Part shown: positions 1,659 to 15,738 of the stretch, in pieces
Position numbering within the stretch: the first letter of the stretch is position 1
Layout of the letters: the number at the start of each line of letters is the position of its first letter
From: a virus
Taxonomy: Duplodnaviria > Heunggongvirae > Uroviricota > Caudoviricetes
Length of the DNA: 22,628 nucleotides
Strand: one strand, 5' to 3'
Virus record (IMG/VR): IMGVR_UViG_2861043448_000001
The notes under the pieces: model-generated
Seen by the model: the letters and a program-made list of their open reading frames with translations, nothing else
The model's database searches: none
Told to the model about the DNA's origin: nothing
Made by a program: the position numbers and the translations under genes

Positions 1659-4130
1659 TTAAGAATCAGCCTGACTCGGGATCAGTTTTTGCCAGATAAC
1701 TGAAACGTATTTTGCCTGGTAACGGGCGTCATCAAGTGCATTATGGCGCTCACCTTCGAATTGAATAGCCGTTCTGGCATCGAAGTCTATGACTTTCCCC
1801 AGCTCAACGATTGTGCGTACATCGCGATCGTTGTAGTAACGCCACGGGCAGGGGATCCCCTGCCGTTCGTATGAACGGCGCAAAATCGTGTTGTCGAAGT
1901 TGGCTCCATTCCCCCAAACCTGAACAAAAAATTCACCGGAGTTTTCGTCGATAAATTCCCGCAATTGTAACAGTGCATCATCTAACGGGATTTCATCGGT
2001 CATAATGGCAGATTGCGCTTCGCGTGATTGCTTAAGCCACCATTTAATGGTGTCCCGATCAATGACTCCGCCAGCAGTTTCCAGATCGATAGTCTTACTA
2101 AATTCCGGTCCCATATCTCCGGTTTGCGGATCGAAAAATATTGCACCTATTGAGGTGATCGGGGCATCAGGATTTTTTCCCATGGTTTCAAGGTCGATCA
2201 TTAGATGGTCACACGTCCTGCTGGTGGATGTGATTTCGTGATGACCGTTCACCTTAATTGGGTGATCTGCCGTCTCGCCAGTTTCATTATCGCTATTGTG
2301 ATGCTGATTGCCGCCAGTGTTCTCCTTGTGTGGATGTTCAGCGCCTTCCATTTCCTCCGGATCATCTTCCTGAACTTCAACCTGATACTCTTCATCGAAT
2401 GTTTCTTGGTATGTTGCGTCGCCCATCACCGCGCCACAATCAGGGCAGTTGCCGCCGCCGGTCTGACCGCAGGCGGTGCAGACTTTTTCCACTTCCTGTT
2501 GCGCTACTGGTTCAGGCTGTTTCGTTTCTGGCTCGTTTTGTAACGCATTTGGACTGTTTTGTTCCGCTTTTTGGTAGTTCCGTTCCGATTCATGCTGGTT
2601 CTGGTTCACAGAATCGCGGGTCTGGATCCCCTTAACCCATTTCGGATCATTCGGGTCACTAATCCCTTCAACAAATTCACCACGTGATGCAGCAAGCAAC
2701 TTATCAGCGTCAGGCTGGCTGATATTGGCTGCCTGCATAATTTTGTTTACTTCGTCAGCGGTAACTTTTATCGGCTCTGGTTGTTCTGAATCTTCAGCGG
2801 TATCTACATTTTGCGGTAAGCCCGTGTATGTGCCATTTTTTCGGGCAAAATATTCTTCTTTTGTGATTTCAGTGGCGCCAGCAGCCAGTGCCTTATCCAG
2901 ACCAGAAAGTTTGTTTGCGCGACCGTATTTTTCTCCGTCCTTATCTGCGAAGAGGAAATAGAACGGCCCCTCACGCTCTACAGATGGTTCAGCTTCCGGC
3001 GCGGTTTCATTTTTTGGGATATCAGATACCTCAGTTTCCACTGCATCAGTTTGTGTTTCTGATGACTGGAGAACATCAACAGTGCCCAGGTCTGTTTCTT
3101 CATTCTCAAACACGCCCTTTGTCGTCAGGTATTCGCAGATATATTTGTTCAGTGCTACGGGATCTTTGTGAATGTCGATCGGACGCTCACGGACAAGGCC
3201 AAAAATAGTTTGGCGGTCGTAGCGAAGGGCATCAGGCTGTTTGCGCATTGATGCCGAGATACGCTTCCAGTCTTCGCGGTCGTTGTCGATAACTTCTTTT
3301 TTTGCCCAGCGATGGATGCTGCCGTCAATGTTTCCGGCATCCACATCACCAGGCCAGAGAGCGTAGGCCAGTTCGTCATCCAGTGTTTTCCATGTCTGCT
3401 TGTATTCGCGATGAATGGCAGCAATGACCGGGCTGATTTTTCCTGTTGAATTTTCAGTGTACTGTTGATTGGCTCTGGCGCGTGCGAGATCAACAACAGA
3501 CGTGTATTTTCCGGTTTCCTTGCGTTCACCTTCGCGACGTTTTTTCCAGATGCGCATCTCTGCCTGAATTTCGGGCCATTTAGCACCAGGAATACATTTA
3601 TGCTTAACCCACCCAATGGCGTGCAACTTAAGCTCCGGATACATGGCGTTAACTTCTGGCATTTTCATCAACGCTTCAACGATATGTCCGTCGAATGTTG
3701 CCATGTCTTCCTGCAACAATTCCTGTGCGCTAATAACCATATCAACGGTGATGTTTTCACATGTGTCGAACTTAACCATGACAGCGTTCTGTACTTCAGG
3801 GGCCAGCTTGTCAAAAGTGACGTTCATCGGATCGGATTCAGTCTCAACCGGGACAAAAGAAGCAGACTCCTCATCCCAGCGGTTTTCCTGCATATATTCA
3901 GCATCCCATGAATCGAGGGCAGGGCGGGGTATGCCAGGTTTATCCTCGCAGACAATAAATTTATAAGCGCAGTCCTGAGCAGCCGGATAATGTTCCAGGA
4001 ATTGCCAGTGAAATTTTGCTCGAGCACGGCGTTCGTCGCCAGCTTCAATGGCTGTGGCTACAGCCACAGCGCCTTCTTCCCTTGTTGCCAGTTCGTCAGG
4101 AATAGCGGCGCAAATAAAGACTTTACTCAT
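1659..4130 (-). CDS. large prophage exonuclease (exodeoxyribonuclease VIII-like) with C-terminal DEDD-type 3'-5' exonuclease domain
   Basis: 823-aa ORF. C-terminal about 180 aa carry DnaQ-like motifs (MIDLETMG ... HNALDDARY). Central acidic low-complexity linker and a C-x2-C-x7-C-x2-C zinc-ribbon-like cluster (CTACGQTGGGNCPDCG). A mid-region segment (DKLLAASRGEFVEGISDPNDPKWVKGIQTRD) seems to match my recollection of RecE, which I cannot verify. Confidence 0.75.
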   Translation of the reverse strand: MSKVFICAAIPDELATREEGAVAVATAIEAGDERRARAKFHWQFLEHYPAAQDCAYKFIVCEDKPGIPRPALDSWDAEYMQENRWDEESASFVPVETESDPMNVTFDKLAPEVQNAVMVKFDTCENITVDMVISAQELLQEDMATFDGHIVEALMKMPEVNAMYPELKLHAIGWVKHKCIPGAKWPEIQAEMRIWKKRREGERKETGKYTSVVDLARARANQQYTENSTGKISPVIAAIHREYKQTWKTLDDELAYALWPGDVDAGNIDGSIHRWAKKEVIDNDREDWKRISASMRKQPDALRYDRQTIFGLVRERPIDIHKDPVALNKYICEYLTTKGVFENEETDLGTVDVLQSSETQTDAVETEVSDIPKNETAPEAEPSVEREGPFYFLFADKDGEKYGRANKLSGLDKALAAGATEITKEEYFARKNGTYTGLPQNVDTAEDSEQPEPIKVTADEVNKIMQAANISQPDADKLLAASRGEFVEGISDPNDPKWVKGIQTRDSVNQNQHESERNYQKAEQNSPNALQNEPETKQPEPVAQQEVEKVCTACGQTGGGNCPDCGAVMGDATYQETFDEEYQVEVQEDDPEEMEGAEHPHKENTGGNQHHNSDNETGETADHPIKVNGHHEITSTSRTCDHLMIDLETMGKNPDAPITSIGAIFFDPQTGDMGPEFSKTIDLETAGGVIDRDTIKWWLKQSREAQSAIMTDEIPLDDALLQLREFIDENSGEFFVQVWGNGANFDNTILRRSYERQGIPCPWRYYNDRDVRTIVELGKVIDFDARTAIQFEGERHNALDDARYQAKYVSVIWQKLIPSQADS

Positions 4131-4223
4131 TTTGTTTTAACCTCATGACAGATTTAAGGATGAACAAATCCCTGCCATTGCTGGCATATAAGAATGAAAC
4201 CGGATATTTATTACGGAACTGTT

Positions 4224-4415
4224 TTAAAGACCTGCCGGGATTTCGATATTATCCTGGTTAATAACTTTATCGACCGGGTAACAGTTACCGGGAATTTTCT
4301 GTTCGGTTGCTGCAGTCATACACTCCTGCATTGTCCTGTGAACACTGACTGCAATATCAACTGGCACTCCGGAAACAAGAAAAACTGTCAGAACAAGCGC
4401 AAATGCTGAATTCAT
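4224..4415 (-). CDS. small hypothetical protein with signal-peptide-like hydrophobic N-terminus
   Basis: 63 codons from ATG at 4415-4413 (MNSAFALVLTVFLVSGVPV...); the start overlaps the stop of the upstream ORF as ATGA (translational coupling); AAGGA SD-like upstream. Confidence 0.4.
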   Translation of the reverse strand: MNSAFALVLTVFLVSGVPVDIAVSVHRTMQECMTAATEQKIPGNCYPVDKVINQDNIEIPAGL

Positions 4416-4600
4416 TGTGCACATCCTTTTGGCATCAGACGTAAACGAGCCAGCATTGAAACAATGCATATTTTATTTAATAGCTCCCGTTCTTGTTTTC
4501 TCTTGTTAATGGCATCTTCAGTAAATACAGGGTTACTGATAGTGACACCAATTTCAAAACAACCTTCAGACGTATTAACGTTTGGTAATAACGTTTTCAT
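4412..4600 (-). CDS. hypothetical small early protein
   Basis: 62-aa ORF with GAGGA SD 8 nt upstream of the ATG; coupled to the downstream small ORF; sits next to the operator-like palindromes in the divergent control region. Confidence 0.45.
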   Translation of the reverse strand: MKTLLPNVNTSEGCFEIGVTISNPVFTEDAINKRKQERELLNKICIVSMLARLRLMPKGCAQ

Positions 4601-4652
4601 TATCGCGTCCTCAACAATGAATTTTGTGATGCAGTGCCTGGTGCCTCCAGGT

Positions 4653-4679
4653 GACGTTAACCAGTTAACAATTAACGTC
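4653..4679. promoter_or_regulatory. operator-like dyad: GACGTTAAC-CA-GTTAAC-AA-TTAACGTC
   Basis: 8-bp perfect inverted repeat (GACGTTAA / TTAACGTC) enclosing two GTTAAC palindromes, in the divergent intergenic region between leftward early genes and the rightward replication gene. Confidence 0.35.
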
Positions 4680-4743
4680 GGATATCCGGATTAGTGATTT
4701 CAGGTTGTATCGTGAGATCAGTGATGGAAAAAGTATTACGTAC

Positions 4744-4926
4744 ATGATCGCCGGGTTAAATAAAGAATATGGCGATGTGGTGGAATCCGGACTGCTTTTT
4801 GCAGATCCTGCCGTTGTAGATCGTGAAACTGACGAACTTATAGAAAAAGCAATTGCTTTCAAGCTTGCGTATCGACAGCAATACCAACAAAAAGCTGGAT
4901 GGAATTATGAGTCTTCTTTTTGCTGA
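4744..4926 (+). CDS. hypothetical small protein (first rightward ORF)
   Basis: ORF in the track from TTG at 4705; first ATG at 4744 (MIAGLNKEYGDV...). Overlaps the start of the replication gene by about 20 nt. Weak SD; could be a cro/cII-position gene or spurious. Confidence 0.3.
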   Translation: MIAGLNKEYGDVVESGLLFADPAVVDRETDELIEKAIAFKLAYRQQYQQKAGWNYESSFC

Positions 4927-5872
4927 ACGCCCACTGGTTATAAACACGCAGCTGGCAATGAAAATTGGCTTAAACGAAGCCATTGTTTTGCAACAACTGC
5001 ACTACTGGTTGAGAGATACCAACTCCGGCATGGAATGTGATGGTGTTCGCTGGATTTATAACACAACGGAACAATGGCTGGAACAGTTCCCATTCTGGTC
5101 AGAGTCAACGTTAAAGCGCGCGTTTGCAAGTCTGAAAACGCTGGGGCTTTTGCGTTGTGAAAAGCTCAATAAATCAAAGCGCGATATGACCAATTTCTAC
5201 ACGATCAACTACGGGAGCGAGCTTTTAGATGGTGGCAAATTGAGCGAATCCATCGGTTTAAAATGCGCCGCTCCATCAGGTCAAAATGACACGATGGAAG
5301 AGGTCAAAATGAAACGCTCCATTGGTTCAAAACGACTCAATGTCATCGGGTCAAAATGGCCTGATGATCTTACAGAGAATACAACAGAGATTACTACAGA
5401 GAATAAAAAGACTTCTCGTCCGGAAGCTTCGCAACCGGACCCGCAGACGGTTGAACAGGATTTTTTAACCCGACACCCTGACGCGGTTGTGTTCAGTGCG
5501 AAAAAACGCCAGTGGGGCAGCCAGGAAGATTTGGCGTGTGCGCAGTGGATCTGGGGGCGAATCGTGAGTCTTTACGAGCAGGCCGCCAGCGATGATGGCG
5601 AGATTTCGCGACCGAAAGAACCCAACTGGACCGCATGGGCCAACGACGTGCGCACAATGCGGATGCTGGATGGCAGAACTCACAGACAAATTTGTGAAAT
5701 GTTTGGTCGGGTGCAGCGGGATCCATTCTGGGTAAAAAATATCATGAGTCCGTCAAAGCTTCGCGAAAAATGGGATGAACTGGTTATCCGCCTGGGGCGT
5801 TCGTCTGTACAGCGTTGTGTGAATCATATTTCTGAGCCGGATACCGAAATTCCGCCGGGCTTCAGGGGGTAA
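4907..5872 (+). CDS. phage replication initiation / replisome-organiser protein with DnaT-like C-terminal domain
   Basis: N-terminal HTH-like region (RPLVINTQLAMKIGLNEAIVLQQLHYWL...), linker with amino-acid repeats, C-terminal region (ACAQWIWGRIV...WTAWANDVRTMRMLDGRTHRQICEMFG...DPFWVKNIMSPSKLREKWDEL) resembling primosomal DnaT C-terminal domains. ATG at 4907 is preferred over the upstream TTG at 4853. Confidence 0.75.
   Translation: MSLLFAERPLVINTQLAMKIGLNEAIVLQQLHYWLRDTNSGMECDGVRWIYNTTEQWLEQFPFWSESTLKRAFASLKTLGLLRCEKLNKSKRDMTNFYTINYGSELLDGGKLSESIGLKCAAPSGQNDTMEEVKMKRSIGSKRLNVIGSKWPDDLTENTTEITTENKKTSRPEASQPDPQTVEQDFLTRHPDAVVFSAKKRQWGSQEDLACAQWIWGRIVSLYEQAASDDGEISRPKEPNWTAWANDVRTMRMLDGRTHRQICEMFGRVQRDPFWVKNIMSPSKLREKWDELVIRLGRSSVQRCVNHISEPDTEIPPGFRG
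5371..5406. repeat. three tandem 12-bp iteron-like repeats (NNACAGAGAWTA) in the replication-gene linker
   Basis: ttACAGAGAATA caACAGAGATTA ctACAGAGAATA, encoding TENTTEITTEN; position is analogous to lambda ori inside gene O. Confidence 0.3.
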
Positions 5873-5912: not shown

Positions 5913-6335
5913 GTGGCAAAAGTTTTTACACAAGAAGAGCGGGAAAAAATTAAAGGGCAGGTTGTTGAACTCGTACGCCGGAGTGGGCGTGAGACGTTAC
6001 GGCAACTGGAAGTCAAGACAGGTGCGACAAGATATCTGATGAGCGTTCTCGCAAGAGAGCTGGTTGCCAGCGGCGATGTATACAACTCTGGTTACGGGTT
6101 ATTCCCGTTTGAACAGGCGCGTAAGGACTGGCAAAATGCCCGTAAAAAGCTCTCAAGGGCAAAGCTGAAGGAACCATCTGCGGTTGATCCGGACCTTATC
6201 TGGTCATTACCTGACGGAGAAATACGTCGTTACGACAGGCGTCATAATATGATTTGTACTGAGTGTCGTAAAAGCGAAGTTATGCAGCGCATATTGTCGT
6301 TTTATCAGGGGGATGTCCGGTATTTATTGAAGTGA
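5913..6335 (+). CDS. hypothetical protein (140 aa)
   Basis: GTG start 5 nt after a strong SD (CAGGAGGG); no recognisable domain from sequence alone. Confidence 0.6.
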   Translation: MAKVFTQEEREKIKGQVVELVRRSGRETLRQLEVKTGATRYLMSVLARELVASGDVYNSGYGLFPFEQARKDWQNARKKLSRAKLKEPSAVDPDLIWSLPDGEIRRYDRRHNMICTECRKSEVMQRILSFYQGDVRYLLK

Positions 6336-6403
6336 CGAGATTAAAGTGCATTAGTTCAGATGCAAATTGACATTTTGTGGCACAGGGTAGAGCTAGCGTG
6401 GTT

Positions 6404-6427
6404 GTCCGCTTTGTGCCAAGAGCGGAC
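6404..6427. repeat. 24-bp hairpin element, copy 1 (GTCCGCTTTGTGCCAAGAGCGGAC)
   Basis: Near-identical to the copy at 7619-7642; 9-bp stem, 6-nt loop; lies about 40 bp outside the 3' end of the GIY-YIG gene. Confidence 0.5.
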
Positions 6428-6464
6428 TTTGCAAAATGGGGGTTATTTCAATCAAAACGTAACG

Positions 6465-7409
6465 TCACAACCAGCCGACGCTCTCTCGCCATTTATAATT
6501 AGTAACTTTATCATTTTCGCTTATTTTTTTAGATATAGAGCGCGGCTCTCTTCCTAGATACTCAGATATTTCTATCGGGGACAAATCAAAATCAACAAGC
6601 ATGACTCTAAGTTTTTCCATTTCCTTTAAAGTCCAAGGCTTGCCATAATTTTCATAAAGAGATACCTTATGCTCCCTGATAGTTCGCTTTCTCTGAGTTT
6701 CACTTTCCCTCTGAAAAATCTCGCTTTTAAATTGTGAACGGAACTCTTTACAGAAGTTGTTATCAGTTTTTTTGTTATATAGATTGCTAAAAATAAGCTG
6801 GGATGCCGGGTCTAAATCAGGTGTGTTAATAATGAAAACTTTGACCTTTTCCATATAGGGATATTCAATTTTACCCAATATGCTTAATTGCTTTATATTA
6901 AAAAAACCTCTCAAATCAAAAGATTTAATGAGCTTTGATTGGATTACACTTTCAATCCTGCTTGCATTTAAATAACAGTACTTTGCCATTGGAAGGGCCC
7001 ATACTACCAGTTGAGGAATATATTTTTCTAATGCAATGCTCTGCCAATCAGTATCAAAGGTTTGGCTTTTTGCTAGCATGTTTTTCGGCAAATCAGAATA
7101 CATTGTGGTAGATGCCCATATCTTATAATCATTCGCCAAGGCTTGATAGTATTTTGTGTGGTTATGAATTTTATAAGCTGACATGAAGCGATAAACGTCT
7201 TCGTCGTGACCAGCGTCGTAAATTGTTCGATTTCCTCTAAGATAACCGTCGTAATGTTCGGTTATCCTTCTACCTACATTACAACTTACCCCAACGTAAA
7301 CCACACGACTGAAAAGTCCTTTATGGACAATAAGATAAACTCCGCTACAGCCAGATTTCCTGGCCTCTGATAGAGAACCTAAAAATCTCCATTCCATAAT
7401 TAAATCCAT
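6465..7409 (-). CDS. GIY-YIG nuclease-domain protein (314 aa) with uncharacterised C-terminal region
   Basis: N-terminus CSGVYLIVHKGLFSRVVYVGVSCNVGRRITEHY fits GIY-x(about 12)-YVG ... R ... E spacing of GIY-YIG nucleases. The gene is markedly AT-rich compared with flanking phage genes. Confidence 0.75.
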   Translation of the reverse strand: MDLIMEWRFLGSLSEARKSGCSGVYLIVHKGLFSRVVYVGVSCNVGRRITEHYDGYLRGNRTIYDAGHDEDVYRFMSAYKIHNHTKYYQALANDYKIWASTTMYSDLPKNMLAKSQTFDTDWQSIALEKYIPQLVVWALPMAKYCYLNASRIESVIQSKLIKSFDLRGFFNIKQLSILGKIEYPYMEKVKVFIINTPDLDPASQLIFSNLYNKKTDNNFCKEFRSQFKSEIFQRESETQRKRTIREHKVSLYENYGKPWTLKEMEKLRVMLVDFDLSPIEISEYLGREPRSISKKISENDKVTNYKWRESVGWL

Positions 7410-7579
7410 AATTATTGCTACTGTTTTTGTTTATCATTATTTTCGTGAAACTTCAACAATTTTATCCAAAAGCTAAGGGCAAAGACTTATATAATTATAC
7501 TTGTCATCGTTAGCGATTATATAGAGTAGTGGCGCTGACCTGCTCCCTGGTGATTCACACAGAATGCTGTTAGTAATGT

Positions 7580-7642
7580 CCGTTCCTCGCTCTCAGCGGA
7601 CCTTCAGCTCAGTGATATCGTCCGCTCTGTGCAAAGAGCGGA
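7580..7642. repeat. two tandem hairpin elements (GTCCGTTCCTCGCTCTCAGCGGAC and GTCCGCTCTGTGCAAAGAGCGGAC)
   Basis: Second unit is a perfect 9-bp stem with 6-nt loop and matches the copy at 6404-6427; located in the 547-bp spacer between the GIY-YIG gene and the 449-aa gene. A further CCGCTCT-containing imperfect dyad occurs near 7760-7790. Confidence 0.45.
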
Positions 7643-7956
7643 CGTTGGTATGCAAGAGCCCTCCAAAAGTTGATGGTTGGTTTGCAGGGGGGCTTAAAGA
7701 AACTGCACTTATCAAGTTGAAGTTCTGTATTCAGCGAAATCGTAGCACTCTGACGATAAGTAACTCCGGTACTCCGCTCTTCGATGAAGAACCAGAGTAA
7801 TCCCCCCGAAAAACCAGCGCATCAAAATTGGATCTTCAGCGGTAGCTTATCGGCTATCGGAAGTACAGGTGTGGATTCGTGGTGAATTGCTTTGATAATA
7901 AACGATTAATACGGAAAAACGCATTAATCATTTATTAGCTTTTAGTAAACCACAAT

Positions 7957-9306
7957 TTATTCCGTTTTACATATCATAGTAGTCGATTGGAGAATATAGT
8001 TTCTGGGAATGTACTCTTCAAAGTGTTCGTCCTTTTTAAATACATGAACTACATTTGGGAATAATTGATAGTCAACAGGGTGTATAGCGTTTGGATTATG
8101 GTACATGTACATGGCTGTACACCATGGTTCTTGATAGTTAGGGTCACTTACATCGGCTGAAAATGGATGTGGGGCTGCATCCTGATCAGTTTTAACACCA
8201 CTGACGTACACTTTGAATCCACTCGCCTCTACACCTGCAAGAATTCCCATCCGGTTAAACTTAGGTATGGTTGCTTGAGTAGTGAGTAAAACGGCAGAAA
8301 CATAATTATTTTGTTCTGAGCCAAAAAAGTTCGACTTGATACTTCTATTTTCATCTGTATGTCTTTCAATAGAAATGCCTGACTCAATATCAATCCCGTA
8401 CAAATAGCTATGCAAGGCTTCGCTTGAGAAGGCCATGGACATTCTTTTTGAATAATCCTGCATTGCTATGACAAATGGTTTGTTCTTTGTATGGTTGAGT
8501 TCCCAGTAATGAACTTTCTCTGGCTCAGGGCAATGCCGGACTTTTTTTAATAAACTTCTTGCAAACTTAAAAGGCATGACATTTAGAACATGTTTTCTTA
8601 ATTCATCCATCTGTTCATCGTTAATGACTTTTCTTTCAAGAGGGGCTTCTGCTTCAGCAATGCTTACAGCCTCTACAGCAATTTCCACTCCAAATTTAGA
8701 TAGCAGAAAATCTGGTTGATTGTATTCTCTATTCATTTCAAAGTCGAGTTCATAAAATACAGCGTTCAAATATAATTCAAATAACCTTGAATTAAATGCA
8801 TCACTTTGAAAATCCCTTATAAATATTCCATCAGGATCTTTGAACCAGTATGCAAGTTCCTCAAGAACAATATATGCAGGGAAATGAAGAGGGTCTTCGA
8901 GGAGCATTTTTATATAAACATTCCTTTTTTTCGCTGGGACCTTACTCAAGAATAATGAAAAAGGTTTGGTTGATTCATCGCCTTGCATGAATGTACCATT
9001 TTGGTGCTGCGCCAGCATCTTTGGTATGTCATCGTTCAAATTATTAAGCAAGACATCCATTGAATCAAATGAAGCCAAGACGTTTATTGCTCTGAATTTT
9101 TTATCTAAATCCCGACCTAAGACTATTGCGTTAAAATCTTTATCAATATTGCATATGATTATTGTGGATAACAATGTTATCCCATTCCCCTCATATTTAA
9201 ACCAGCGTATCTCCTCAGAAAATGTCTTAAGGTAAGGTGAGCGACCGTAAAAATAAATATCAAATTGTTCTTTGCTGATCTCACTGAAGTGTAATCCTGC
9301 GTTCAT
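7957..9306 (-). CDS. hypothetical protein (449 aa), no recognisable domain
   Basis: Long intact ORF with AAGGA SD 7-11 nt upstream of the ATG; AT-rich; same strand as the adjacent GIY-YIG gene. Confidence 0.7.
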   Translation of the reverse strand: MNAGLHFSEISKEQFDIYFYGRSPYLKTFSEEIRWFKYEGNGITLLSTIIICNIDKDFNAIVLGRDLDKKFRAINVLASFDSMDVLLNNLNDDIPKMLAQHQNGTFMQGDESTKPFSLFLSKVPAKKRNVYIKMLLEDPLHFPAYIVLEELAYWFKDPDGIFIRDFQSDAFNSRLFELYLNAVFYELDFEMNREYNQPDFLLSKFGVEIAVEAVSIAEAEAPLERKVINDEQMDELRKHVLNVMPFKFARSLLKKVRHCPEPEKVHYWELNHTKNKPFVIAMQDYSKRMSMAFSSEALHSYLYGIDIESGISIERHTDENRSIKSNFFGSEQNNYVSAVLLTTQATIPKFNRMGILAGVEASGFKVYVSGVKTDQDAAPHPFSADVSDPNYQEPWCTAMYMYHNPNAIHPVDYQLFPNVVHVFKKDEHFEEYIPRNYILQSTTMICKTE

Positions 9307-9428
9307 ACCAATTCCTTTTCAATGAATAATTGGCCTTTAGGAGTGATTCCCTTTGTCTTTAATTCAGTTCTAACTAGTTCTTTAATCCAATAGCCTAAGC
9401 TCATCATGCAGTTGGATCATAAGACAAC

Positions 9429-9457
9429 GCCCTATAGTGCTCGTGATACTATAGGGC
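9429..9457. promoter_or_regulatory. perfect 10-bp inverted repeat with 9-bp spacer (GCCCTATAGT-gctcgtgat-ACTATAGGGC)
   Basis: Seen directly in the divergent region between the 449-aa gene and the recombinase gene; geometry resembles an operator or recombinase core site. Confidence 0.35.
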
Positions 9458-9590
9458 ATCTGACCACACTGTTAACTGGAGTAACGACTATGGCAGGAAT
9501 ACAGCATAACCAAACTCACCCCAAACTTACATAGCGCTTTCTGGCCGTGAGCATAACAAGGTCCACTCCTCGCTCATAAGGGACAACCAT

Positions 9591-9623
9591 ACTCAAATCT
9601 CCCACATTGCAGGAGATTTGAGT
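9591..9623 (+). promoter_or_regulatory. perfect 12-bp stem-loop sequestering the recombinase ribosome-binding site
   Basis: ACTCAAATCTCC-cacattgca-GGAGATTTGAGT; the AGGAG SD (9611-9615) lies in the loop/3' arm junction and the ATG (9624) follows immediately. Confidence 0.45.
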
Positions 9624-10226
9624 ATGAACACGTCACCGTGGAACAAAGACCGTATCATAGGCCAAAAAAGACCACTTCAGATATCTCATATCTGGGGTAT
9701 CCGAATCCGACTTGAACTGGAAGGTAAAACTCGCGATTTAGCTCTGTTCAACATGGCCCTGGATAGTAAGCTTCGAGGCTGTGATCTGGTCAAACTCAAA
9801 GTATCTGATGTTGCATATGGTGGCTCTGTTTCAAGCAGAGCAACGGTGTTGCAACAGAAAACCGGTAGCCCTGTTCAATTTGAGATAACCAAAGGGACAA
9901 GAGAAGCTGTTGCTGCATTGATACAGCTTAGCAATTTGCACAGTAAAGACTTCTTGTTTCGGTCTAGGGTCGGAACTAACCAGCACATTTCAACCCGGCA
10001 ATACAACCGAATCTTTCATGGGGGGGTAGAAAAGCTTGGTCTCGAAGATTCGCTTTACAGCACACATTCCATGAGAAGAACAAAACCTTACCTGATCTAC
10101 AAGAAAACCAAGAATCTCCGGGTGATCCAACTTCTGTTGGGTCATAAGAAACTGGAAAGCACAGTCCGTTATCTGGGCATTGAAGTCGATGATGCGTTAG
10201 AGATTTCTGAATCGATTGAAGTCTAA
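9624..10226 (+). CDS. small tyrosine recombinase, catalytic domain only (FimB/FimE-sized, 200 aa)
   Basis: Catalytic signature ...LRGCD (Arg-I) ... HSMRRT ... LLGH ... TVRYL (Tyr nucleophile). No N-terminal arm-binding domain. The track ORF begins at TTG 9618; ATG 9624 with AGGAG 8 nt upstream is preferred. Confidence 0.8.
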   Translation: MNTSPWNKDRIIGQKRPLQISHIWGIRIRLELEGKTRDLALFNMALDSKLRGCDLVKLKVSDVAYGGSVSSRATVLQQKTGSPVQFEITKGTREAVAALIQLSNLHSKDFLFRSRVGTNQHISTRQYNRIFHGGVEKLGLEDSLYSTHSMRRTKPYLIYKKTKNLRVIQLLLGHKKLESTVRYLGIEVDDALEISESIEV

Positions 10227-10585
10227 GGTTGTCAGGGCTGCAACAGCAGCCCTGTGCCATAAGCGGAAGTATTTAACAACTATCAGTGTTGTTCAACAGA
10301 TAAAGGGGCACTTGATTTTTTCTGTTCTCAGGAAATGATAAAAGCGCGTCGGTTCAAGCCTGCTTAACGGGAGTTTGTTAATCCTGTTGCCGTGACGTTT
10401 TGACACCATTATGATGGGGAGACACTTAATGTATGAAGGTTCCGCCACTTATACCTGTCCAACAACTGCCTCGGATGTTTCTTTGTATGAATAAGTGGTA
10501 ATGAGTAGTGAATCGCTAACAGTCACCCGAACAATCGGTGCCTGCAATTAATTCTATATTCTAAACGAGGGGGAGATTATTACAC

Positions 10586-11566
10586 ATGAAATTTAAGGAC
10601 AAGAACCTTAAGGCTCTCGCGGAATGTATCATAGGAGATAATAAGGCATTTCTGTATCGTTCAAGCAGTCACATCACTGAATTTTTCCAGGACTGCGGCA
10701 TGGATGTTACTCATGACGGATCCACTCGGTGGAAATGGACGGCCCAGAGGCTTGAAGAACTTCTTTATGAGCCACAGTCAAAGCCACATACTTTGCCGGA
10801 AAGGTTTGTTCATGTGCTCAGAACTTTAATGTTAAAAGAAGATGCAATGGATGACGATCCAGGAAGATTAAAGGCGCTTGAAGAACTGAACAAGCCTTTG
10901 ATGCGGGAAGGCTATGAGGCATTCTATGGTGACGATCGCCTTTTGTATATACGCCATACCGATACCAAAACGGTTTCAGTCAGTAATAACCCTCATCGGC
11001 CCTTAACGCCTCACGAAGTAGAATGCAGAAGGTTACTGACCGCGTTTCTTGATACCTGCTCAGAAGATGAGTTAATAGAAGATATTCTCCTTCCTTTATT
11101 CCGGCAACTTGGTTTTCACCGGATAACAGCAGTGGGACATAAAGATAAAGCGCTGGAATACGGGAAAGACATCTGGATGAAGTTCACACTGCCAACTCAG
11201 CATGTTCTTTATTTCGGCATTCAGGCAAAAAAAGGTAAGTTGGATGCGTCCGGTGCCAGCAAATCTACGAATTCAAACGTGGCAGAAATCTTCAACCAGG
11301 TACTGATGATGCTTGGCCATGAAATATTTGACCCAGAAACAAATAGAAAGGTGCTGGTAGATCATGCCTTTATCGTTGCTGGCGGAGAAATTACTAAACA
11401 GGCGAGGAACTGGCTGGGCGGGAAACTTGATGCCAGCAAAAGAAGCCAGATAATATTTATGGACCGGGAAGACATTCTTAATTTATATACTGTAAGTAAT
11501 GTACCTCTGCCAACAGGTGCTCTCATCTCTGATGATGCCGTTAAGAACGATGATATTCCTTTCTAA
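10586..11566 (+). CDS. protein with C-terminal Mrr-like PD-(D/E)xK nuclease motif and unknown N-terminal domain (326 aa)
   Basis: Strong SD (GAGGGGGAG). C-terminal half ...HRITAVGHKDKALEYGKDIWMKF...LYFGIQAKKG... resembles the Mrr catalytic core (D ... Q-x-K). Confidence 0.7.
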   Translation: MKFKDKNLKALAECIIGDNKAFLYRSSSHITEFFQDCGMDVTHDGSTRWKWTAQRLEELLYEPQSKPHTLPERFVHVLRTLMLKEDAMDDDPGRLKALEELNKPLMREGYEAFYGDDRLLYIRHTDTKTVSVSNNPHRPLTPHEVECRRLLTAFLDTCSEDELIEDILLPLFRQLGFHRITAVGHKDKALEYGKDIWMKFTLPTQHVLYFGIQAKKGKLDASGASKSTNSNVAEIFNQVLMMLGHEIFDPETNRKVLVDHAFIVAGGEITKQARNWLGGKLDASKRSQIIFMDREDILNLYTVSNVPLPTGALISDDAVKNDDIPF

Positions 11567-11993
11567 TCAGAAGTACGTCTTTTTCTGAAAGAATACGTGA
11601 TAGGTAGCCACACCACACCTTTAGTGACCCCTTAATCTGGTAATATAACAGCCCGTATGAATGTCCGCGGCATCGCGGGCTGAAATTTATTAAAAATACT
11701 TATTCATCAAGCTGGAGTAGTTTGCCGAGTAACTGTAAACGCCCAACTTAACCGGACCATTCACTTTTAGATTGCTACCAGCAAACCAACTTCCGTTTCT
11801 CGCTCAAAGCGGACTAGAAGGTTAGCTTGCGTCGGACTTGGCGTATTTAAAGAAGTGCTGGTGGTAACTGGTTGTTGTGTTCCATTTCTACAAAACAAAA
11901 TCACAGAAACTATACCCAATAGTTATATTGAATCAATGATGAGACAGCCTCATATTTATCAGAACTGGTGTACGTCCAATACAGGAGGTTGTC

Positions 11994-12083
11994 GTGCTGG
12001 TTCTCAAATATGCGCTAGCTATTGCGGCTGTAATGGCAATTTATTGTCTTGCTATTGTTCTTACGGATCGCCTTTCTGATTGA
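11994..12083 (+). CDS. putative small hydrophobic peptide (29 codons, GTG start)
   Basis: AGGAGG SD 6 nt upstream of GTG; translation VLVLKYALAIAAVMAIYCLAIVLTDRLSD is one predicted TM helix with a short polar tail, like type I toxins. Lies just upstream of the hok promoter region. Confidence 0.25.
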   Translation: MLVLKYALAIAAVMAIYCLAIVLTDRLSD

Positions 12084-12237
12084 TTTTATATTGGCGAGGT
12101 GACGGGAGTTAAGTAGAATTGCTGCGGGTGCTTGAGGCTATCTGCCTCAGGCATGAACACCAAAGGCAGATAGAGAAAAGCCCCAGTTAACATTACGCGT
12201 CCTGCAAGACGTTTAACATTAATCTGAGGCTCAATCT

Positions 12238-12450
12238 ATGAACGGCAAATCTAGGTTAGCCTCTTACGTGCCGAAAGGCAAGGAGAAGCAGGCTATGAAG
12301 CAGCAAAAGGCGATGTTAATCGCCCTGATCGTCATCTGTTTAACCGTCATAATGACGGCACTGGTAACGAGGAAAGACCTCTGCGAGGTACGAATCCGAA
12401 CCGGCCAGACGGAGGTCGCTGTCTTCACAGCTTACGAACCTGAGGAGTAA
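12238..12450 (+). CDS. hok: Hok/Gef family type I toxin with in-frame Mok leader (hok proper = 12295..12450)
   Basis: MKQQKAMLIALIVICLTVIMTALVTRKDLCEVRIRTGQTEVAVFTAYEPEE is a near-match to Hok/Gef toxins; in-frame upstream extension from ATG 12238 as in chromosomal mok; candidate promoter TTGGCG-17-TAGAAT about 12097-12125. Confidence 0.85.
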   Translation: MNGKSRLASYVPKGKEKQAMKQQKAMLIALIVICLTVIMTALVTRKDLCEVRIRTGQTEVAVFTAYEPEE

Positions 12451-12517
12451 GAGACCAGGCGGGGGAGAATCCCTCGCCACCTCTGATGTGTCAGGCATCC
12501 TCAACGCACCCGCACTT

Positions 12518-12546
12518 AACCCGCTTCGGCGGGTTTTTGTTTTTAT
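12518..12546 (+). terminator. intrinsic terminator after hok
   Basis: AACCCGC-ttcg-GCGGGTT hairpin followed by a T-run (TTTTTGTTTTTATTTT). Confidence 0.6.
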
Positions 12547-12665
12547 TTTCAACGCGTTTGAAGTTCTGGACGGTGCCGGAATAGAATCAAAAATACTTAA
12601 GTAGCGCGCAGGGATAAGAGGGATGGTCCCTTAAAGGGGAGAGCTAATTATCCGGAAGGATTCTG

Positions 12666-12917
12666 ATGATGAACATCGAAGAACTGCGTAAAATTTTTTG
12701 TGAAGATGGCCTCTATGCTGTGTGCGTTGAAAATGGAAATCTTGTTAGTCATTACCGCATTATGTGTTTGCGAAAGAATGGGGCTGCGTTAATTAATTTT
12801 GTGGATGGTCGAGTGACAGACGGATTTATCTTGCGCGAAGGTGAGTTTGTCACTTCATTACAGGCACTGAAAGAGATTGGAATAAAAGCAGGCTTTTCAG
12901 CTTTTGCAGAAGAATAA
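12666..12917 (+). CDS. small nin-region protein (83 aa), Rem-like by size and position
   Basis: GGAAGGA SD before ATGATG; same size and position relative to hok and the HNH-motif protein as the K-12 Qin rem gene as I recall it; the protein sequence itself is not something I can verify. Confidence 0.55.
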   Translation: MMNIEELRKIFCEDGLYAVCVENGNLVSHYRIMCLRKNGAALINFVDGRVTDGFILREGEFVTSLQALKEIGIKAGFSAFAEE

Positions 12918-12983
12918 ACTCATCTACAATCTTGCGCGGGGCTGAACTCCCGCTGAGTAACACCGTGCCACCGGAGAAAACCG

Positions 12984-13262
12984 ATGGCACGCAACGTAAA
13001 ATATTACAATTCTGATAATTCGCCCGTTCTTGCCTGCACGCACGAGCGGTATTCTCACGCATTCAAGTCTGAATGGTTCCAGCACCCTCCATGCACTGAA
13101 GAGCAGGCTGAATGGATAATTCAGTGTTACCGCAGGCGCGGATACGAGGTTAAGAAAGCTCTTAGTCTCGACTACCGTCACTGGATAATCTCAGTCAGAT
13201 TGCCTTACTCCGAACGCCCACCGCGTCCGTCCCGTACATTCCAGCAACGCATCTGGAGGTAA
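12984..13262 (+). CDS. hypothetical protein (92 aa)
   Basis: GGAGAAAA SD; stop lies 2 nt before the GTG start of the next gene (operon-like packing). Confidence 0.5.
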   Translation: MARNVKYYNSDNSPVLACTHERYSHAFKSEWFQHPPCTEEQAEWIIQCYRRRGYEVKKALSLDYRHWIISVRLPYSERPPRPSRTFQQRIWR

Positions 13263-13263
13263 C

Positions 13264-14313
13264 GTGCGGGTATTACTTCGACCTGTTCTGGTACCGGAAC
13301 TCGGGCTGGTGGTCGTTAAGCCGGGCCGTGAATCCATGCCGGTATTCCACAATACCCGGGTACTGGTGGAGCCGGAACCGAAAAGCATGCGTAATCTGCC
13401 GTCCGGGGTCGTTCCTGCCGTTCGCCAGCCGCTGGTGGAAGACAAAACATTGCTGCCGTTTTTCAGTAACGCACGGGTAATTCGTGCTGCTGGTGGTGCT
13501 GGTGCATTGTCTGACTGGCTGTTGCGCCATATTAAATCCTGCCAGTGGCCACACGGCGATTATCATCACAGCGAAACCGTCATTCACCGTTATGGTACCG
13601 GCGCAATGGTGTTGTGCTGGCACTGCGACAACCAGCTGCGTGACCAGACATCCGAATCACTCGAGCAACTTGCTCATCAAAACCTGTCAGCATGGATGAT
13701 TGACGTCATCGGTCACGCAATAAGCGGTACGCAGGAGCGTGAATTATCTTTGGCTGAATTATCCTGGTGGGCGGTCCGCAATCAGGTGGCGGACGCGCTA
13801 CCGGAAGCGGTATTACGTGGTTCGCTGGGGTTGCGTGCGGAAAAAATCCGCTCAATGTACCGTGAAAGCGACATCGTACCGGGAGAGCAGACCGCCAACA
13901 GCATACTGAAACAGCGCACAAAAAATCTTGCGCCGCTGCCTCACGCCCACCAGCAACAGAACCCACCACAGGAAAAGACGGTGGTCAGCATTGCCGTTGA
14001 TCCTGAGTCTCCGGAATCTTTCATGAAACGACCTAAACGTCGCCGCTGGGTTAACGAGAAATACACACGCTGGGTGAAGACACAGCCGTGTGCGTGTTGT
14101 GGTAAGCCAGCCGACGATCCCCATCACCTGATTGGTCATGGTCAGGGCGGAATGGGGACAAAATCTCACGATATTTTCACGCTACCGCTGTGTCGGGAGC
14201 ATCACAACGAGCTTCATGCGGATCCTCTGGCGTTCGAAGAAAAGCATGGTTCTCAGGTTGATTTAATTTTTCGTTTTCTTGATCACGCCTTTGCAACTGG
14301 CGTGCTTGGGTAA
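13264..14313 (+). CDS. nin-region protein with C-terminal HNH-like Cys/His motif (349 aa, YdfU-like)
   Basis: GTG start with GGAGG SD 5 nt upstream; C-terminus CACCGK...HHLIGHGQGG...CREHHNELH resembles HNH nuclease motifs; size matches K-12 YdfU as recalled. Confidence 0.7.
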   Translation: MRVLLRPVLVPELGLVVVKPGRESMPVFHNTRVLVEPEPKSMRNLPSGVVPAVRQPLVEDKTLLPFFSNARVIRAAGGAGALSDWLLRHIKSCQWPHGDYHHSETVIHRYGTGAMVLCWHCDNQLRDQTSESLEQLAHQNLSAWMIDVIGHAISGTQERELSLAELSWWAVRNQVADALPEAVLRGSLGLRAEKIRSMYRESDIVPGEQTANSILKQRTKNLAPLPHAHQQQNPPQEKTVVSIAVDPESPESFMKRPKRRRWVNEKYTRWVKTQPCACCGKPADDPHHLIGHGQGGMGTKSHDIFTLPLCREHHNELHADPLAFEEKHGSQVDLIFRFLDHAFATGVLG

Positions 14314-14325
14314 AAGAGGTGACTG

Positions 14326-14700
14326 ATGCTCATAGATTTGGTTTTACCTTACCCGCCGACGGTGAACACTTACTGGCGACGCCGTGGCAGCACATATTTT
14401 ATCTCGGAGGAGGGAAAGCGTTATCGCCGGGCTGTGGCGCTTATTGTTCGCCAGCAGCGGCTGAAATTAAGCCTGTCCGGAAGGCTGGCGATAAAGGTGA
14501 TTGCAGAGCCACCGGATAAGCGTCGTCGCGACCTGGACAATATCCTGAAAGCACCGCTGGATGCGCTGACGCATGCGGGAGTGTTAATGGACGATGAGCA
14601 GTTTGATGAAATCAATATCGTTCGTGGTCAGCCAGTATCTGGTGGACGTCTGGGGGTGAAGATTTACCCCATAATGCATGAAGAGCAGGTCAAAAAATGA
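14326..14700 (+). CDS. rusA: RusA-type Holliday junction resolvase
   Basis: 124-aa ORF with conserved ...PDKRRRDLDNILKAPLDALTHAGVLMDDEQ...GGRL... motif of RusA. Confidence 0.85.
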   Translation: MLIDLVLPYPPTVNTYWRRRGSTYFISEEGKRYRRAVALIVRQQRLKLSLSGRLAIKVIAEPPDKRRRDLDNILKAPLDALTHAGVLMDDEQFDEINIVRGQPVSGGRLGVKIYPIMHEEQVKK

Positions 14701-15518
14701 AACTGGAAGATTTACCGAAATACTACTCCCCAAAATCCCCTGGCCTGACCGATGCATCGGCCTCAACGTCAAAAGATGCGCTGAGTATCACTGATGTGAT
14801 GGCCGCGCAGGGCATGACACAGAATCGGGCTGAGATGGGTTTTTCTGCGTTCCTGGGGAAAATGGGCATCAGTATGAATGACAGGGCGCGGGCAACAGAA
14901 TTACTGGCAGATTATGCACTCAGTCGGTGCGATCGTGTGGCGGCGTTGAGAAAGCTTCCGGCAGAAATAAAACCGGTAGTGATGCGCATTATGGCTTCGT
15001 ACGCTTTTGAGGATTATGCCCGCAGCGCAGCGAGTAAAAAGCAGTGCCCTTGTTGCTATGGGGAAAAATTTATTGAAAGCGTAGTTTTTACAAACAAGGT
15101 CCAGTATCCGGATGGTAAGCCGCCGGTATGGGCAAAGTGTACGAAAGGTGTGTATCCGTCTTACTGGGAAGAATGGAAAAAAGTCAGGGAGGTGGTAAAA
15201 GTTGCCTGTCCGGAGTGTGGCGGAAAGGGTGAGGTTTCCACCGCCTGTAAGGATTGCCGTGGGCGTGGTGTCGCCATTCATCGTGAAGAGTCGGTAAAAC
15301 GTGGTATGCCTGTTATCAGAGACTGCCAGCGTTGTGGTGGTCGTGGCTATGAAAGACTACCATCAACGGAGGCATTTAATGCTATATGCGAGGTGACAAA
15401 CCAGATAACACGCGCGTCATGGGAAAAAACAGTTAAGAAATTCTATGATGCGCTGGTGACCCGGTTTGATATTGAAGAAGCATGGGCTGAGCGGCAGTTA
15501 AAAAAGGTAACTAGGTAA
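14697..15518 (+). CDS. late-gene antiterminator Q (called by position; Cys-rich zinc-binding motifs)
   Basis: Start overlaps the rusA stop (ATGA); immediately upstream of a PR'-like promoter and tR'-like terminator; contains CPCC and three CxxCGG(K/R)G repeats. Confidence 0.65.
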   Translation: MKLEDLPKYYSPKSPGLTDASASTSKDALSITDVMAAQGMTQNRAEMGFSAFLGKMGISMNDRARATELLADYALSRCDRVAALRKLPAEIKPVVMRIMASYAFEDYARSAASKKQCPCCYGEKFIESVVFTNKVQYPDGKPPVWAKCTKGVYPSYWEEWKKVREVVKVACPECGGKGEVSTACKDCRGRGVAIHREESVKRGMPVIRDCQRCGGRGYERLPSTEAFNAICEVTNQITRASWEKTVKKFYDALVTRFDIEEAWAERQLKKVTR

Positions 15519-15523
15519 CAAGG

Positions 15524-15551
15524 TTGATTTTTCCGGAATCTGTGGTAAATT
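15524..15551 (+). promoter_or_regulatory. late promoter PR'-like (-35 TTGATT, 16-bp spacer, extended -10 TGgTAAATT)
   Basis: Hexamers read directly; the -10 TAAATT is identical to lambda PR' as recalled; positioned right after Q. Confidence 0.55.
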
Positions 15552-15598
15552 CGTCATAACGATGGGCGTTTTATGCCTGACGTTAGAAGAGTTTCTAC

Positions 15599-15625
15599 AA
15601 CCCGCCGCCGAGCGGGTTTTTTATT
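15599..15625 (+). terminator. tR'-like intrinsic terminator
   Basis: CCCGC-cgccga-GCGGG hairpin followed by TTTTTTATT, about 50 nt downstream of the predicted PR' start. Confidence 0.55.
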
Positions 15626-15661
15626 GCGGAATTAATTATGGACCGTTATTATTCTGCTCCC

Positions 15662-15737: not shown

Positions 15738-15738
15738 A

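What the first reader, a model, noticed from the sequence alone, without database searches (positions are those of the whole stretch)
6340..12450. Composite accessory island in the nin-equivalent hotspot: nuclease, orphan, recombinase, Mrr-like nuclease, toxin
Between the replication module and the conserved rem/rusA/Q block the prophage carries five accessory functions in a row (GIY-YIG protein, 449-aa orphan, tyrosine recombinase, Mrr-like nuclease protein, hok toxin), in two orientations and with differing base composition. This looks like sequential cargo acquisition at a single hotspot rather than one operon.
Basis: inference. Interest (0 to 1): 0.55.

Follow-up and report, generated by a model that had tools for sequence, protein, structure and literature searches.

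The report
Recombinase-run defence-gene cassette array in prophage
The "accessory island" in this defective E. coli prophage is an array of three swappable gene cassettes, each bounded by short recombination sites and served by a tiny recombinase encoded between two of them, and the platform looks integron-like but I found no description of it.

Summary
The ORFs, their two orientations and the composition differences are real. The window is a defective Qin-like lambdoid prophage next to rspB. The labels need correcting. The "449-aa orphan" is the validated anti-phage gene PD-T7-1. The GIY-YIG call is confirmed by fold. "Mrr-like" stays unproven. hok/sok belongs to the conserved backbone, not the cargo.

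The main new result is the mechanism. Six 24-nt sites (9-nt palindromic arms, 6-nt spacer; types T1 and T2) sit exactly at the module boundaries. They divide 6404-11814 into three cassettes (T2...T1). The 200-aa tyrosine recombinase gene lies inside one T1/T2 junction.

Each cassette recurs at 98.6-100% identity in unrelated E. coli islands and prophages. Homology breaks inside the 6-nt spacers, and half-sites travel with the cassette. Related prophages carry the same backbone T2 and T1 with different cargo.

The recombinase-plus-site architecture extends across Proteobacteria. In Enterobacterales about half the sampled cargo is known defence genes.

I found no published description in the searchable library. 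That the recombinase acts at these sites is inferred, not shown.

The parts
6404..6427 (.). T2 site (GTCCGCTTT-GTGCCA-AGAGCGGAC). It is the left end of the array. Its left arm belongs to the prophage backbone and its right arm to cassette 1.
   Evidence: Backbone homology with L089/L090/L091 ends here. The breakpoint falls in the spacer.
6465..7409 (-). Cassette 1 cargo: a 314-aa GIY-YIG nuclease with a C-terminal Myb/HTH DNA-binding domain. It is a candidate defence gene.
   Evidence: The same cassette, 99.0-99.8% identical, lies between T2 and T1 in L085 and L086; L092 holds it at about 96%.
7578..7643 (.). 66-nt junction: T1 (7578-7601), an 18-nt linker, then T2 (7620-7643).
   Evidence: BLAST detects such junctions in 702 of 5426 E. 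coli genomes, always unannotated.
7816..7896 (+). AlpA/HTH regulator gene fragment, carried inside cassette 2.
   Evidence: RefSeq annotation. It is also present in the L087 copy of the cassette.
7957..9306 (-). Cassette 2 cargo: PD-T7-1, a single-gene anti-phage system. A promoter-like site lies at 9475-9448(-).
   Evidence: PADLOC E=7e-157; PHROG 8571; Vassallo 2022, PMC9519451; promoter scan. The cassette sits in another prophage remnant in L087.
9561..9584 (.). T1' site. Its left arm belongs to cassette 2. Its right arm (ATAAGGGAC) belongs to the recombinase module.
9588..9626 (+). Perfect 15-bp hairpin that pairs the Shine-Dalgarno sequence and the ATG of the recombinase gene (dG -22.5 kcal/mol).
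9624..10226 (+). 200-aa tyrosine recombinase with a catalytic domain only. It sits where the junction linker would otherwise be.
   Evidence: The residues R53, K81, H150, R153, H176 and Y185 were read from the sequence.
10234..10268 (+). Stem-loop AGGGCTGC-AACA-GCAGCCCT running into T2' (spacer GTGCCA at 10254-10259, right arm AAGCGGAA).
10586..11566 (+). Cassette 3 cargo: a 326-aa protein, putatively a PD-(D/E)xK nuclease, more than 70% identical across phyla. It is a candidate defence gene.
   Evidence: The identical protein occupies the slot in L093 that PD-T7-1 occupies in L087.
11791..11814 (.). T1 site, the right end of the array. Its right half and everything beyond it is prophage backbone.
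12126..12450 (+). sok antisense RNA region and mok/hokD. This lies inside the finding's coordinates but is conserved backbone, not part of the array.
   Evidence: Rfam sok 111.7 bits; Pfam HOK_GEF 81 bits; conserved in L089-L091 and K-12.

Best explanation
Window 6404-11814 is an array of three mobile gene cassettes. It is installed between a T2 site and a T1 site that are part of the backbone of this family of lambdoid prophages.

Site anatomy. T1 and T2 are 24-nt sites. They share palindromic 9-nt arms (GTCCGCTYY / RRAGCGGAC). Their 6-nt spacers are different and asymmetric: TCGCTC in T1 and GTGCCA in T2. T2 is essentially T1 inverted with two spacer changes.

Array anatomy. Every cassette runs from a T2 spacer to a T1 spacer. 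Neighbouring cassettes are joined by a 66-nt junction (T1, 18 nt, T2). In one junction the gene for a 200-aa tyrosine recombinase replaces the 18-nt linker.

Proposed mechanism. The recombinase binds the arms and exchanges strands within the spacer. Spacers must match, so T1 recombines only with T1 and T2 only with T2. Three reactions follow.
- Two like sites in direct repeat excise a circle carrying a cassette plus one junction.
- Such a circle integrates at any like site elsewhere.
- One T2xT2 and one T1xT1 exchange together swap a cassette, as in engineered recombinase-mediated cassette exchange.

Recombinase synthesis is held down by a hairpin that sequesters its ribosome-binding site and start codon. 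Cassettes lie in either orientation and probably carry their own promoters.

Cargo here: PD-T7-1 (validated anti-phage), a GIY-YIG/HTH nuclease, and a widely transferred 326-aa putative nuclease. The array most likely works as an exchangeable anti-phage arsenal for the lysogen.

Shown: the sites, their positions, their enrichment, the breakpoints, recurrence of the cassettes elsewhere, the recombinase-site linkage, and the hairpin. Inferred: that this recombinase catalyses the exchanges, that T1 and T2 are heterospecific, that the system is active today, and that cassettes 1 and 3 are defensive.
For: (1) Five sites match GTCCGCT-N10-AGCGGAC with up to 3 mismatches in the window, against 0.64 expected; none of 100 shuffles reached 5. 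A stricter 20-position score found 107 sites in 23 loci and 0 in shuffles. All window sites are intergenic and fall at module edges.

(2) Cassette 1 recurs at 99.0-99.8% identity in L085 and L086 (about 96% in L092), cassette 2 at 98.6% in L087, and cassette 3 (identical protein) in L093. Neighbours differ each time, and each copy is bounded by T2 and T1.

(3) In eight boundary comparisons, polymorphisms left of the spacer follow the left context and those right of it follow the right context.

(4) BLAST block edges across 5426 genomes fall on the sites: query 1-1210, 1217-3181, 3159/3167-3864, 3850-5403, and the solo junction 1175-1251.

(5) L087 and L093 share flanks (97.9% and 96.1%) but hold PD-T7-1 and the 326-aa cassette respectively. 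Half-sites match the cassette.

(6) L092 has cassette 1 directly next to the recombinase. The window equals that arrangement plus one cassette circle integrated at T1.

(7) Sister prophages L089-L091 share the backbone up to T2 and, in L089 and L090, from T1 onward, with other cargo between.

(8) The recombinase gene is flanked by T1' and T2' in all Enterobacterales loci examined. In Pseudomonas-type loci it is flanked by inverted copies of a diverged site.

(9) The Shine-Dalgarno sequence is paired in 47 of 55 distinct 5' regions despite different stem sequences.

(10) Nine of 20 sampled cargo ORFs in other arrays hit known defence families strongly: HEC-08, PD-T7-5, mREase IV, Lit, SIR2+HerA, NsnA, ThsA-like and a helicase.
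Against: - There is no biochemical or genetic evidence that the 200-aa protein acts on T1 or T2.
- Many arrays (L085-L087, L089-L091, L093, K-12 Qin) have no recombinase gene within the stretch examined. One copy (L092) is a pseudogene.
- All 177-180 genomes that carry this island have it in one arrangement, so nothing shows current activity in this lineage.
- Breakpoint mapping rests on a handful of polymorphisms per site.
- The recombinase-proximal arms of T1' and T2' deviate from consensus.
- Cargo is not exclusively defence. CFT073 has a TonB-receptor/ABC operon cassette, and Pseudomonas-type loci carry metabolic genes.
- Defence roles of cassettes 1 and 3 are untested.
Confidence: 0.72

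Rival explanations
1. This is an ordinary lambdoid 'moron' mosaic. The repeated palindromes are terminators or conserved linker sequences, and the modules are shuffled by homologous or illegitimate recombination between phages.
For: The region lies in the classical nin-equivalent variable zone. The backbone flanks are conserved enough for homologous exchange. The island is static within its lineage.
Against: The sites are not followed by T-runs and the terminator scan did not call them. The same sites and cassettes occur in non-phage islands and on plasmids. Breakpoints fall in the 6-nt spacers, with half-sites co-travelling. A recombinase gene is embedded between half-sites across Proteobacteria.
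Confidence: 0.08
2. The sites are real recombination sites but a host enzyme (XerCD or another chromosomal recombinase) uses them, as proposed for Acinetobacter pdif modules. The 200-aa recombinase is then just one more passenger module.
For: Many arrays lack a nearby recombinase gene. The recombinase module is itself bounded by T1 and T2 like any other module. Only 884 of 5426 E. coli genomes carry the gene, compared with at least 702 that have BLAST-detectable junctions.
Against: The arms (GTCCGCT / AGCGGAC) are identical palindromes, which fits one homomeric enzyme. By inspection and my own knowledge they do not resemble dif or cer. The site sequence diverges together with the recombinase in distant taxa. 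The gene's position between half-sites and its RBS hairpin are conserved.
Confidence: 0.13
3. The short recombinase is a FimB/FimE-like invertase. It would phase-vary expression of the neighbouring defence genes by flipping segments between the inverted T1 and T2 sites.
For: It is FimB-sized, with a catalytic domain only. T1 and T2 are mutually inverted. Some cassettes or array segments are found inverted (L013, L015, L091 and K-12 flxA).
Against: NCBIfam invertase models score 27 and 19 bits against cut-offs of 222 and 221. The T1 and T2 spacers differ at 2 of 6 positions. All 177-180 genomes have the island in the same orientation, as single BLAST pieces. The dominant pattern across loci is replacement of cassettes, not inversion.
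Confidence: 0.05

Closest known systems
Integrons (IntI, attI, attC cassette arrays), including chromosomal integrons that bank anti-phage cassettes
   Same: Both are arrays of promiscuously exchanged one- to few-gene cassettes separated by imperfect-palindrome sites. Both are run by a tyrosine recombinase and carry much defence cargo. In both, excision is predicted to give a circle of cassette plus site that re-inserts at like sites.
   Different: Here the recombinase is 200 aa, lacks the IntI-specific domain, and scores far below the integron-integrase models. The sites are paired 24-nt 9-6-9 cores of two spacer types, not 57-141-nt attC sites. I saw no attI/Pc platform. Cassettes lie in both orientations. 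The recombinase gene sits inside the array, between two half-sites.
Acinetobacter plasmid dif modules (pdif sites, XerC/XerD)
   Same: In both, discrete modules are flanked by inversely oriented recombination sites. Two module classes alternate (here T2...T1 cassettes and T1...T2 junction modules). Identical modules recur in different contexts. See PMC13141974 and PMC9455709.
   Different: The pdif sites are 28-nt XerC/XerD sites used by host Xer proteins. Here both arms are the same palindrome, the asymmetry lies only in the spacer, and a dedicated recombinase gene is one of the modules. Hosts here are Enterobacterales chromosomes, prophages and plasmids.
Engineered recombinase-mediated cassette exchange with heterospecific lox/FRT sites
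   Same: Two site variants share arms but differ in spacer. They flank a cassette, so like pairs with like and the cassette is swapped without being lost.
   Different: That system is a laboratory design using Cre or Flp. Here the arrangement is natural, and heterospecificity is inferred rather than tested.
P2/P4 prophage and satellite defence hotspots, and lambdoid nin-region morons
   Same: A fixed position in a temperate-phage genome holds variable anti-phage cargo (PMC9122126).
   Different: Those hotspots are described as being exchanged through flanking conserved genes. Here the exchange points are dedicated sites, which are also used outside phages.

Membership tests
Tyrosine recombinases (Pfam PF00589) | A catalytic-domain match above the curated cut-off, and the R-K-H-R-H/W-Y residues. 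| tested here: met
   63.9 bits against a cut-off of 27.1, covering residues 37-186. R53, K81, H150, R153, H176 and Y185 were located by motif. No PDB sequence match was available to align against.
Integron integrases (IntI) | A match to the integron-integrase models and the IntI-specific extra domain (about 320 aa). | tested here: not met
   TIGR02249 scores 17.2 bits against a cut-off of 265. NF011946 scores 17.5 against 435. The protein is only 200 aa.
Integrons | attC sites: 57-141 nt, with R''/L''-L'/R' boxes and a GTTRRRY core, together with an attI/Pc platform. | tested here: not met
   Read directly from the sequences. The sites are 24-nt GTCCGCTYY-N6-RRAGCGGAC cores in T1/T2 pairs. 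Cassettes lie on both strands. IntegronFinder was not available.
FimB/FimE-type DNA invertases | A match to the NCBIfam tyrosine-type DNA invertase models. | tested here: not met
   NF007371 scores 27.4 bits against a cut-off of 222. NF007370 scores 19.2 against 221.
Xer/dif-module systems | 28-nt sites with distinct XerC and XerD arms, and dependence on host XerCD. | tested here: not met
   Both arms of T1 and T2 are the same palindrome and are unlike dif (inspection and my own knowledge). XerC/XerD equivalog models score 27-45 bits against cut-offs of about 330. Xer dependence cannot be tested here.
Xer/dif-module systems | Modules flanked by inversely oriented sites, with two module classes alternating. 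| tested here: met
   The T2...T1 / T1...T2 alternation appears in the window and in other Enterobacterales loci; in some, partner sites fall below the scoring threshold.
PD-T7-1 anti-phage system | A full-length match to the PADLOC PD-T7-1 model. | tested here: met
   E=7.3e-157, residues 8-447 aligned to model positions 2-448 of 452. The phenotype was shown for the family in PMC9519451, not for this allele.
GIY-YIG nucleases | The GIY-YIG fold and motif. | tested here: met
   [not shown]
Mrr-like / PD-(D/E)xK nucleases (326-aa protein) | A profile or fold match to a PD-(D/E)xK or Mrr catalytic domain. | tested here: inconclusive
   [not shown]
hok/sok type I toxin-antitoxin | A Hok peptide together with sok antisense RNA. 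| tested here: met
   HOK_GEF scores 81 bits against a cut-off of 22. Rfam sok scores 111.7 bits against 59.

The most novel reading that the evidence does not exclude
T1/T2 arrays and their 200-aa recombinase are a previously undescribed, Proteobacteria-wide gene-cassette platform. Under this reading it is a natural recombinase-mediated cassette-exchange system with heterospecific sites, distinct from integrons and from Xer/dif modules. In Enterobacterales it would be a major route by which anti-phage genes move between prophages, genomic islands and plasmids. It would also have left fossil sites in E. coli K-12 (around flxA in Qin).
Probability: 0.45. Interest if true: 0.9.

Novelty: new variant of a known kind. 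Interest (0 to 1): 0.8.

Why it matters
How defence genes move so freely between islands, prophages and plasmids is an open question. Outside integrons and a few transposon families, no dedicated mechanism is known.

- a specific enzyme and specific 24-nt sites that can be tested in a week of plasmid genetics
- a sequence signature for delimiting cassettes, and so for discovering new single-gene defence systems, in thousands of Enterobacterales genomes
- two immediate candidates, the GIY-YIG/HTH protein and the 326-aa protein that is more than 70% identical across phyla
- a minimal, naturally heterospecific recombinase/site pair of possible use in genome engineering

If the system is already described in literature I could not search, the result still re-annotates this island correctly.

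Tried and rejected
- I tested whether cassettes 1+2 or recombinase+326-aa are two-gene systems. Rejected: each occurs without the other.
- I considered an invertible promoter switch. Rejected as the main reading: the island has one orientation in all 177-180 genomes.
- I considered that the sites are terminators. The scan does not call them.
- RNAalifold on a MAFFT alignment of recombinase 5' regions returned no structure because the alignment was out of register. I replaced it with per-sequence folding.
- PDB sequence searches for the recombinase and for the 326-aa profile found nothing.
- A strict palindrome search failed to find the diverged sites in Pseudomonas-type loci. A locus-derived pattern found them.
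- The pYZLc4-1 homologue of the 326-aa gene has no recognisable T1 or T2 sites.
- Seven literature searches for a description of such a system, one for DUF977, and reads of PMC11551731 and PMC8138268 found none. Non-open-access papers were not searched.
Full report
**Context.** The window is a defective Qin-like lambdoid prophage next to rspB/ynfA. It is 100% identical to many human clinical and other E. coli chromosomes.
- The gene order is int, xis, exo, ydfD, dicB, O-like replication gene (PHROG 391), DUF977, the flagged interval, sok/hokD, rem, a small ORF, DUF968, rusA, Q and tRNAs.
- Lysis and tail genes after that are mostly pseudogenes.

**Observation.** The five ORFs exist as described, on two strands, with distinct composition.
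- GC is 0.37 and 0.387 for the first two modules and 0.455 and 0.433 for the next two. The backbone is 0.478 to 0.51.
- GC3 is 0.34 for the first two genes against about 0.5 for backbone genes.

**Labels.**
- The 449-aa "orphan" has no Pfam hit, but it is a full-length PD-T7-1 (PADLOC E=7e-157). PD-T7-1 is a single-gene system that Vassallo et al. showed to protect against T7 and, more strongly, T-even phages. They found it both in defence islands and in prophages (PMC9519451).
- The recombinase is a bona fide tyrosine recombinase of only 200 aa.
- The 326-aa protein belongs to a family of at least 3877 protein clusters. The 120 best listed are 288-329 aa (mostly 326) and at least 70% identical, from Enterobacterales to Verrucomicrobia, Cyanobacteria and Omnitrophica. 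Residues D195, Q213 and K215 are invariant.
- No profile or fold evidence for Mrr/PD-(D/E)xK reached significance for that protein.
- hokD with sok is confirmed.

**The sites.** A repeat search showed one palindromic motif at every module boundary.
- The pattern GTCCGCT-N10-AGCGGAC, with up to 3 mismatches, occurs 5 times in the window against 0.64 expected. A sixth, more degenerate copy follows the recombinase gene.
- The sites have a 9-6-9 layout and come in two types. T1 has the spacer TCGCTC (7578, 9561, 11791). T2 has the spacer GTGCCA/GTGCAA (6404, 7620, 10245).
- T2 read on the other strand is T1 with two spacer changes.
- The layout of the window is: T2 | cassette 1 | T1-18 nt-T2 | cassette 2 | T1'-recombinase-T2' | cassette 3 | T1.

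**Are the cassettes real mobile units?** Yes, on five grounds.
- Counts. The three cargo modules occur in 288, 200 and 198 of 5426 genomes. The recombinase occurs in 884 and the whole island in 177-180.
- Other contexts. Cassette 1 lies next to a GTPase gene with a type I RM/DarTG cluster further along (L085), next to NACHT+HEPN (L086), and next to another cassette and the recombinase (L092). Cassette 2 lies in another prophage remnant beside a type II RM system (L087). Cassette 3 lies in that very same slot in another strain (L093). Every copy is bounded by T2 and T1.
- Breakpoints. Homology starts and stops inside the sites. Polymorphisms left of the 6-nt spacer follow the left context and those right of it follow the right context, in all eight comparisons.
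- A swap. L087 and L093 share flanks (97.9% and 96.1%) but hold different cassettes. The half-sites match those the same cassettes carry in the window.
- Block edges. Across all 5426 genomes the BLAST block edges coincide with the sites, including a recombinase-only module and a solo junction.

L092 has cassette 1 abutting the recombinase. The window differs from it by exactly the segment that a T1xT1 circle would insert.

**The hotspot.** Related prophages L089, L090 and L091 share the DUF977 gene and 68 nt downstream, right up to the T2 site. They then diverge.
- L089 carries SMEK plus a methyltransferase.
- L090 carries a single two-gene T2...T1 cassette.
- L091 carries QueH, a Kiwa KwaB-like protein, flxA and relBE.
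- In L089 and L090, homology resumes at the T1 core and runs to sok/hokD.

T2 and T1 are therefore backbone features of this phage family, and they explain why this position is variable. E. coli K-12's own Qin prophage has T2 and T1 around flxA.

**The recombinase.**
- In all Enterobacterales loci examined, the gene is preceded by T1' and followed by a stem-loop running into T2'. It occupies the place of the junction linker.
- Homologues at least 60% identical over the full length occur across Gamma- and Betaproteobacteria.
- The family appears on 405 plasmids, including alphaproteobacterial ones, but in essentially no cultured phage genome.
- There are at least 8000 protein clusters, all with only generic names.
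- In Pseudomonas and Stutzerimonas loci the gene is flanked by inverted copies of a diverged site (CCGCTTTTGGCCGGTTAGCGACC), and some loci have a further copy upstream. The site and the enzyme therefore diverge together.
- A hairpin pairs the Shine-Dalgarno sequence in 47 of 55 distinct 5' regions and the ATG in 42 of 55, with different stem sequences. In the window it is a perfect 15-bp stem (dG -22.5, z about -7). This is the kind of translational lock seen in transposase genes (my own knowledge).

**Arrays elsewhere.**
- Under a 20-position score, 107 sites were found in 23 loci against 0 in shuffles.
- Nearly all sites are co-oriented with the recombinase gene.
- Arrays reach six or more cassettes of 0.6-9.7 kb, with GC from 0.33 to 0.56.
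- Nine of 20 sampled cargo ORFs gave strong PADLOC hits: HEC-08, PD-T7-5, type IV REase, ThsA-like, Lit, SIR2+HerA, NsnA and a helicase.
- Cargo is not only defence. CFT073 has a TonB-receptor/ABC operon between sites. Pseudomonas-type loci carry phosphonate/phosphite-type or HupE genes.

**Mechanism and its limits.** The anatomy fits a homomeric tyrosine recombinase that cuts on either side of a 6-nt overlap. Two spacer variants keep T1 and T2 from recombining with each other. Cassettes are then excised, inserted or swapped rather than deleted or flipped.
- None of this has been tested. The enzyme-site assignment, the heterospecificity and present-day activity are all inferences.
- The island is invariant in its lineage, and many arrays lack a nearby recombinase gene.
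- A host-recombinase model, as proposed for Acinetobacter dif modules, remains possible.

**Comparison with known systems and novelty.**
- The system works like an integron and, more closely, like dif modules. It fails the membership tests for IntI, attC, FimB/E and Xer (and site inspection).
- Rfam has no family for the sites.
- RefSeq leaves the junctions unannotated. BLAST detects them in at least 702 genomes.
- Seven literature searches for such a system, one for DUF977, and two targeted reads found no description. Subscription journals were not covered.
- I therefore rate it a new variant of a known kind (tyrosine-recombinase cassette platforms), with about an even chance that it is truly undescribed.

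**Verdict.** What is really there is more specific and more interesting: a site-delimited, recombinase-associated array of defence cassettes.

Noticed in passing
window 4600-4853 (compare L089 5732-8208 and L091 5619-8208): This prophage lacks the whole ydfC-ydfB-ydfA-dicA-dicC-ydaT immunity segment that sister prophages carry between dicB and the O-like gene. Only a pseudogene fragment remains (RefSeq, about 4685-4927). The element has no repressor and is defective.
   Followed up: partly
window 15662-15971: ARAGORN calls four tRNAs: CAT, TTT, TGT and TCC. Rfam at gathering threshold and RefSeq call only three (Ile-CAT, Thr, Gly). The extra tRNA-Lys(TTT) at 15739-15815 may be a degenerate copy.
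   Followed up: no
window 11855-12079: A Cys-rich 74-codon ORF lies between the right-hand T1 and sok. It stays open in L089 and L090. The 18 differences from L089 are spread 6/6/6 over the codon positions, so coding status is unclear.
   Followed up: partly
window 9431-9457: A near-perfect palindrome (CCCTATAG-N-CTATAGGG type) overlaps the -10 region of the promoter-like site upstream of PD-T7-1. It could be an operator.
   Followed up: no
[not shown]
   Followed up: partly
L094 (E. coli K-12 MG1655 Qin) 5982-6996: K-12's Qin prophage carries a T2 site (inside the annotated ydfV ORF) and a T1 site on either side of flxA. K-12 therefore holds a fossil cassette of this system. The sites are not annotated.
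   Followed up: partly
L005 10007-10609 and 13862-14464: One Buttiauxella array contains two copies of the recombinase gene, separated by a single cassette.
   Followed up: no
L002 (CFT073) 10710-16453: A complete TonB-dependent receptor plus ABC transporter operon (5.7 kb, GC 0.54) lies between a T2 site and a T1 site. The platform can therefore carry non-defence, multi-gene cargo.
   Followed up: partly
window 16250-17300 and 21500-22628: There are sharp composition extremes: GC 0.60-0.64 inside the tail-tip pseudogene and GC 0.31-0.35 at the right end of the window. Neither was examined.
   Followed up: no
L019 9944: The T1' site upstream of the Rahnella recombinase has the spacer TGGCTC. 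That is half like inverted T2 (TGGCAC) and half like T1 (TCGCTC). It is either a point variant or a trace of T1xT2 exchange.
   Followed up: no
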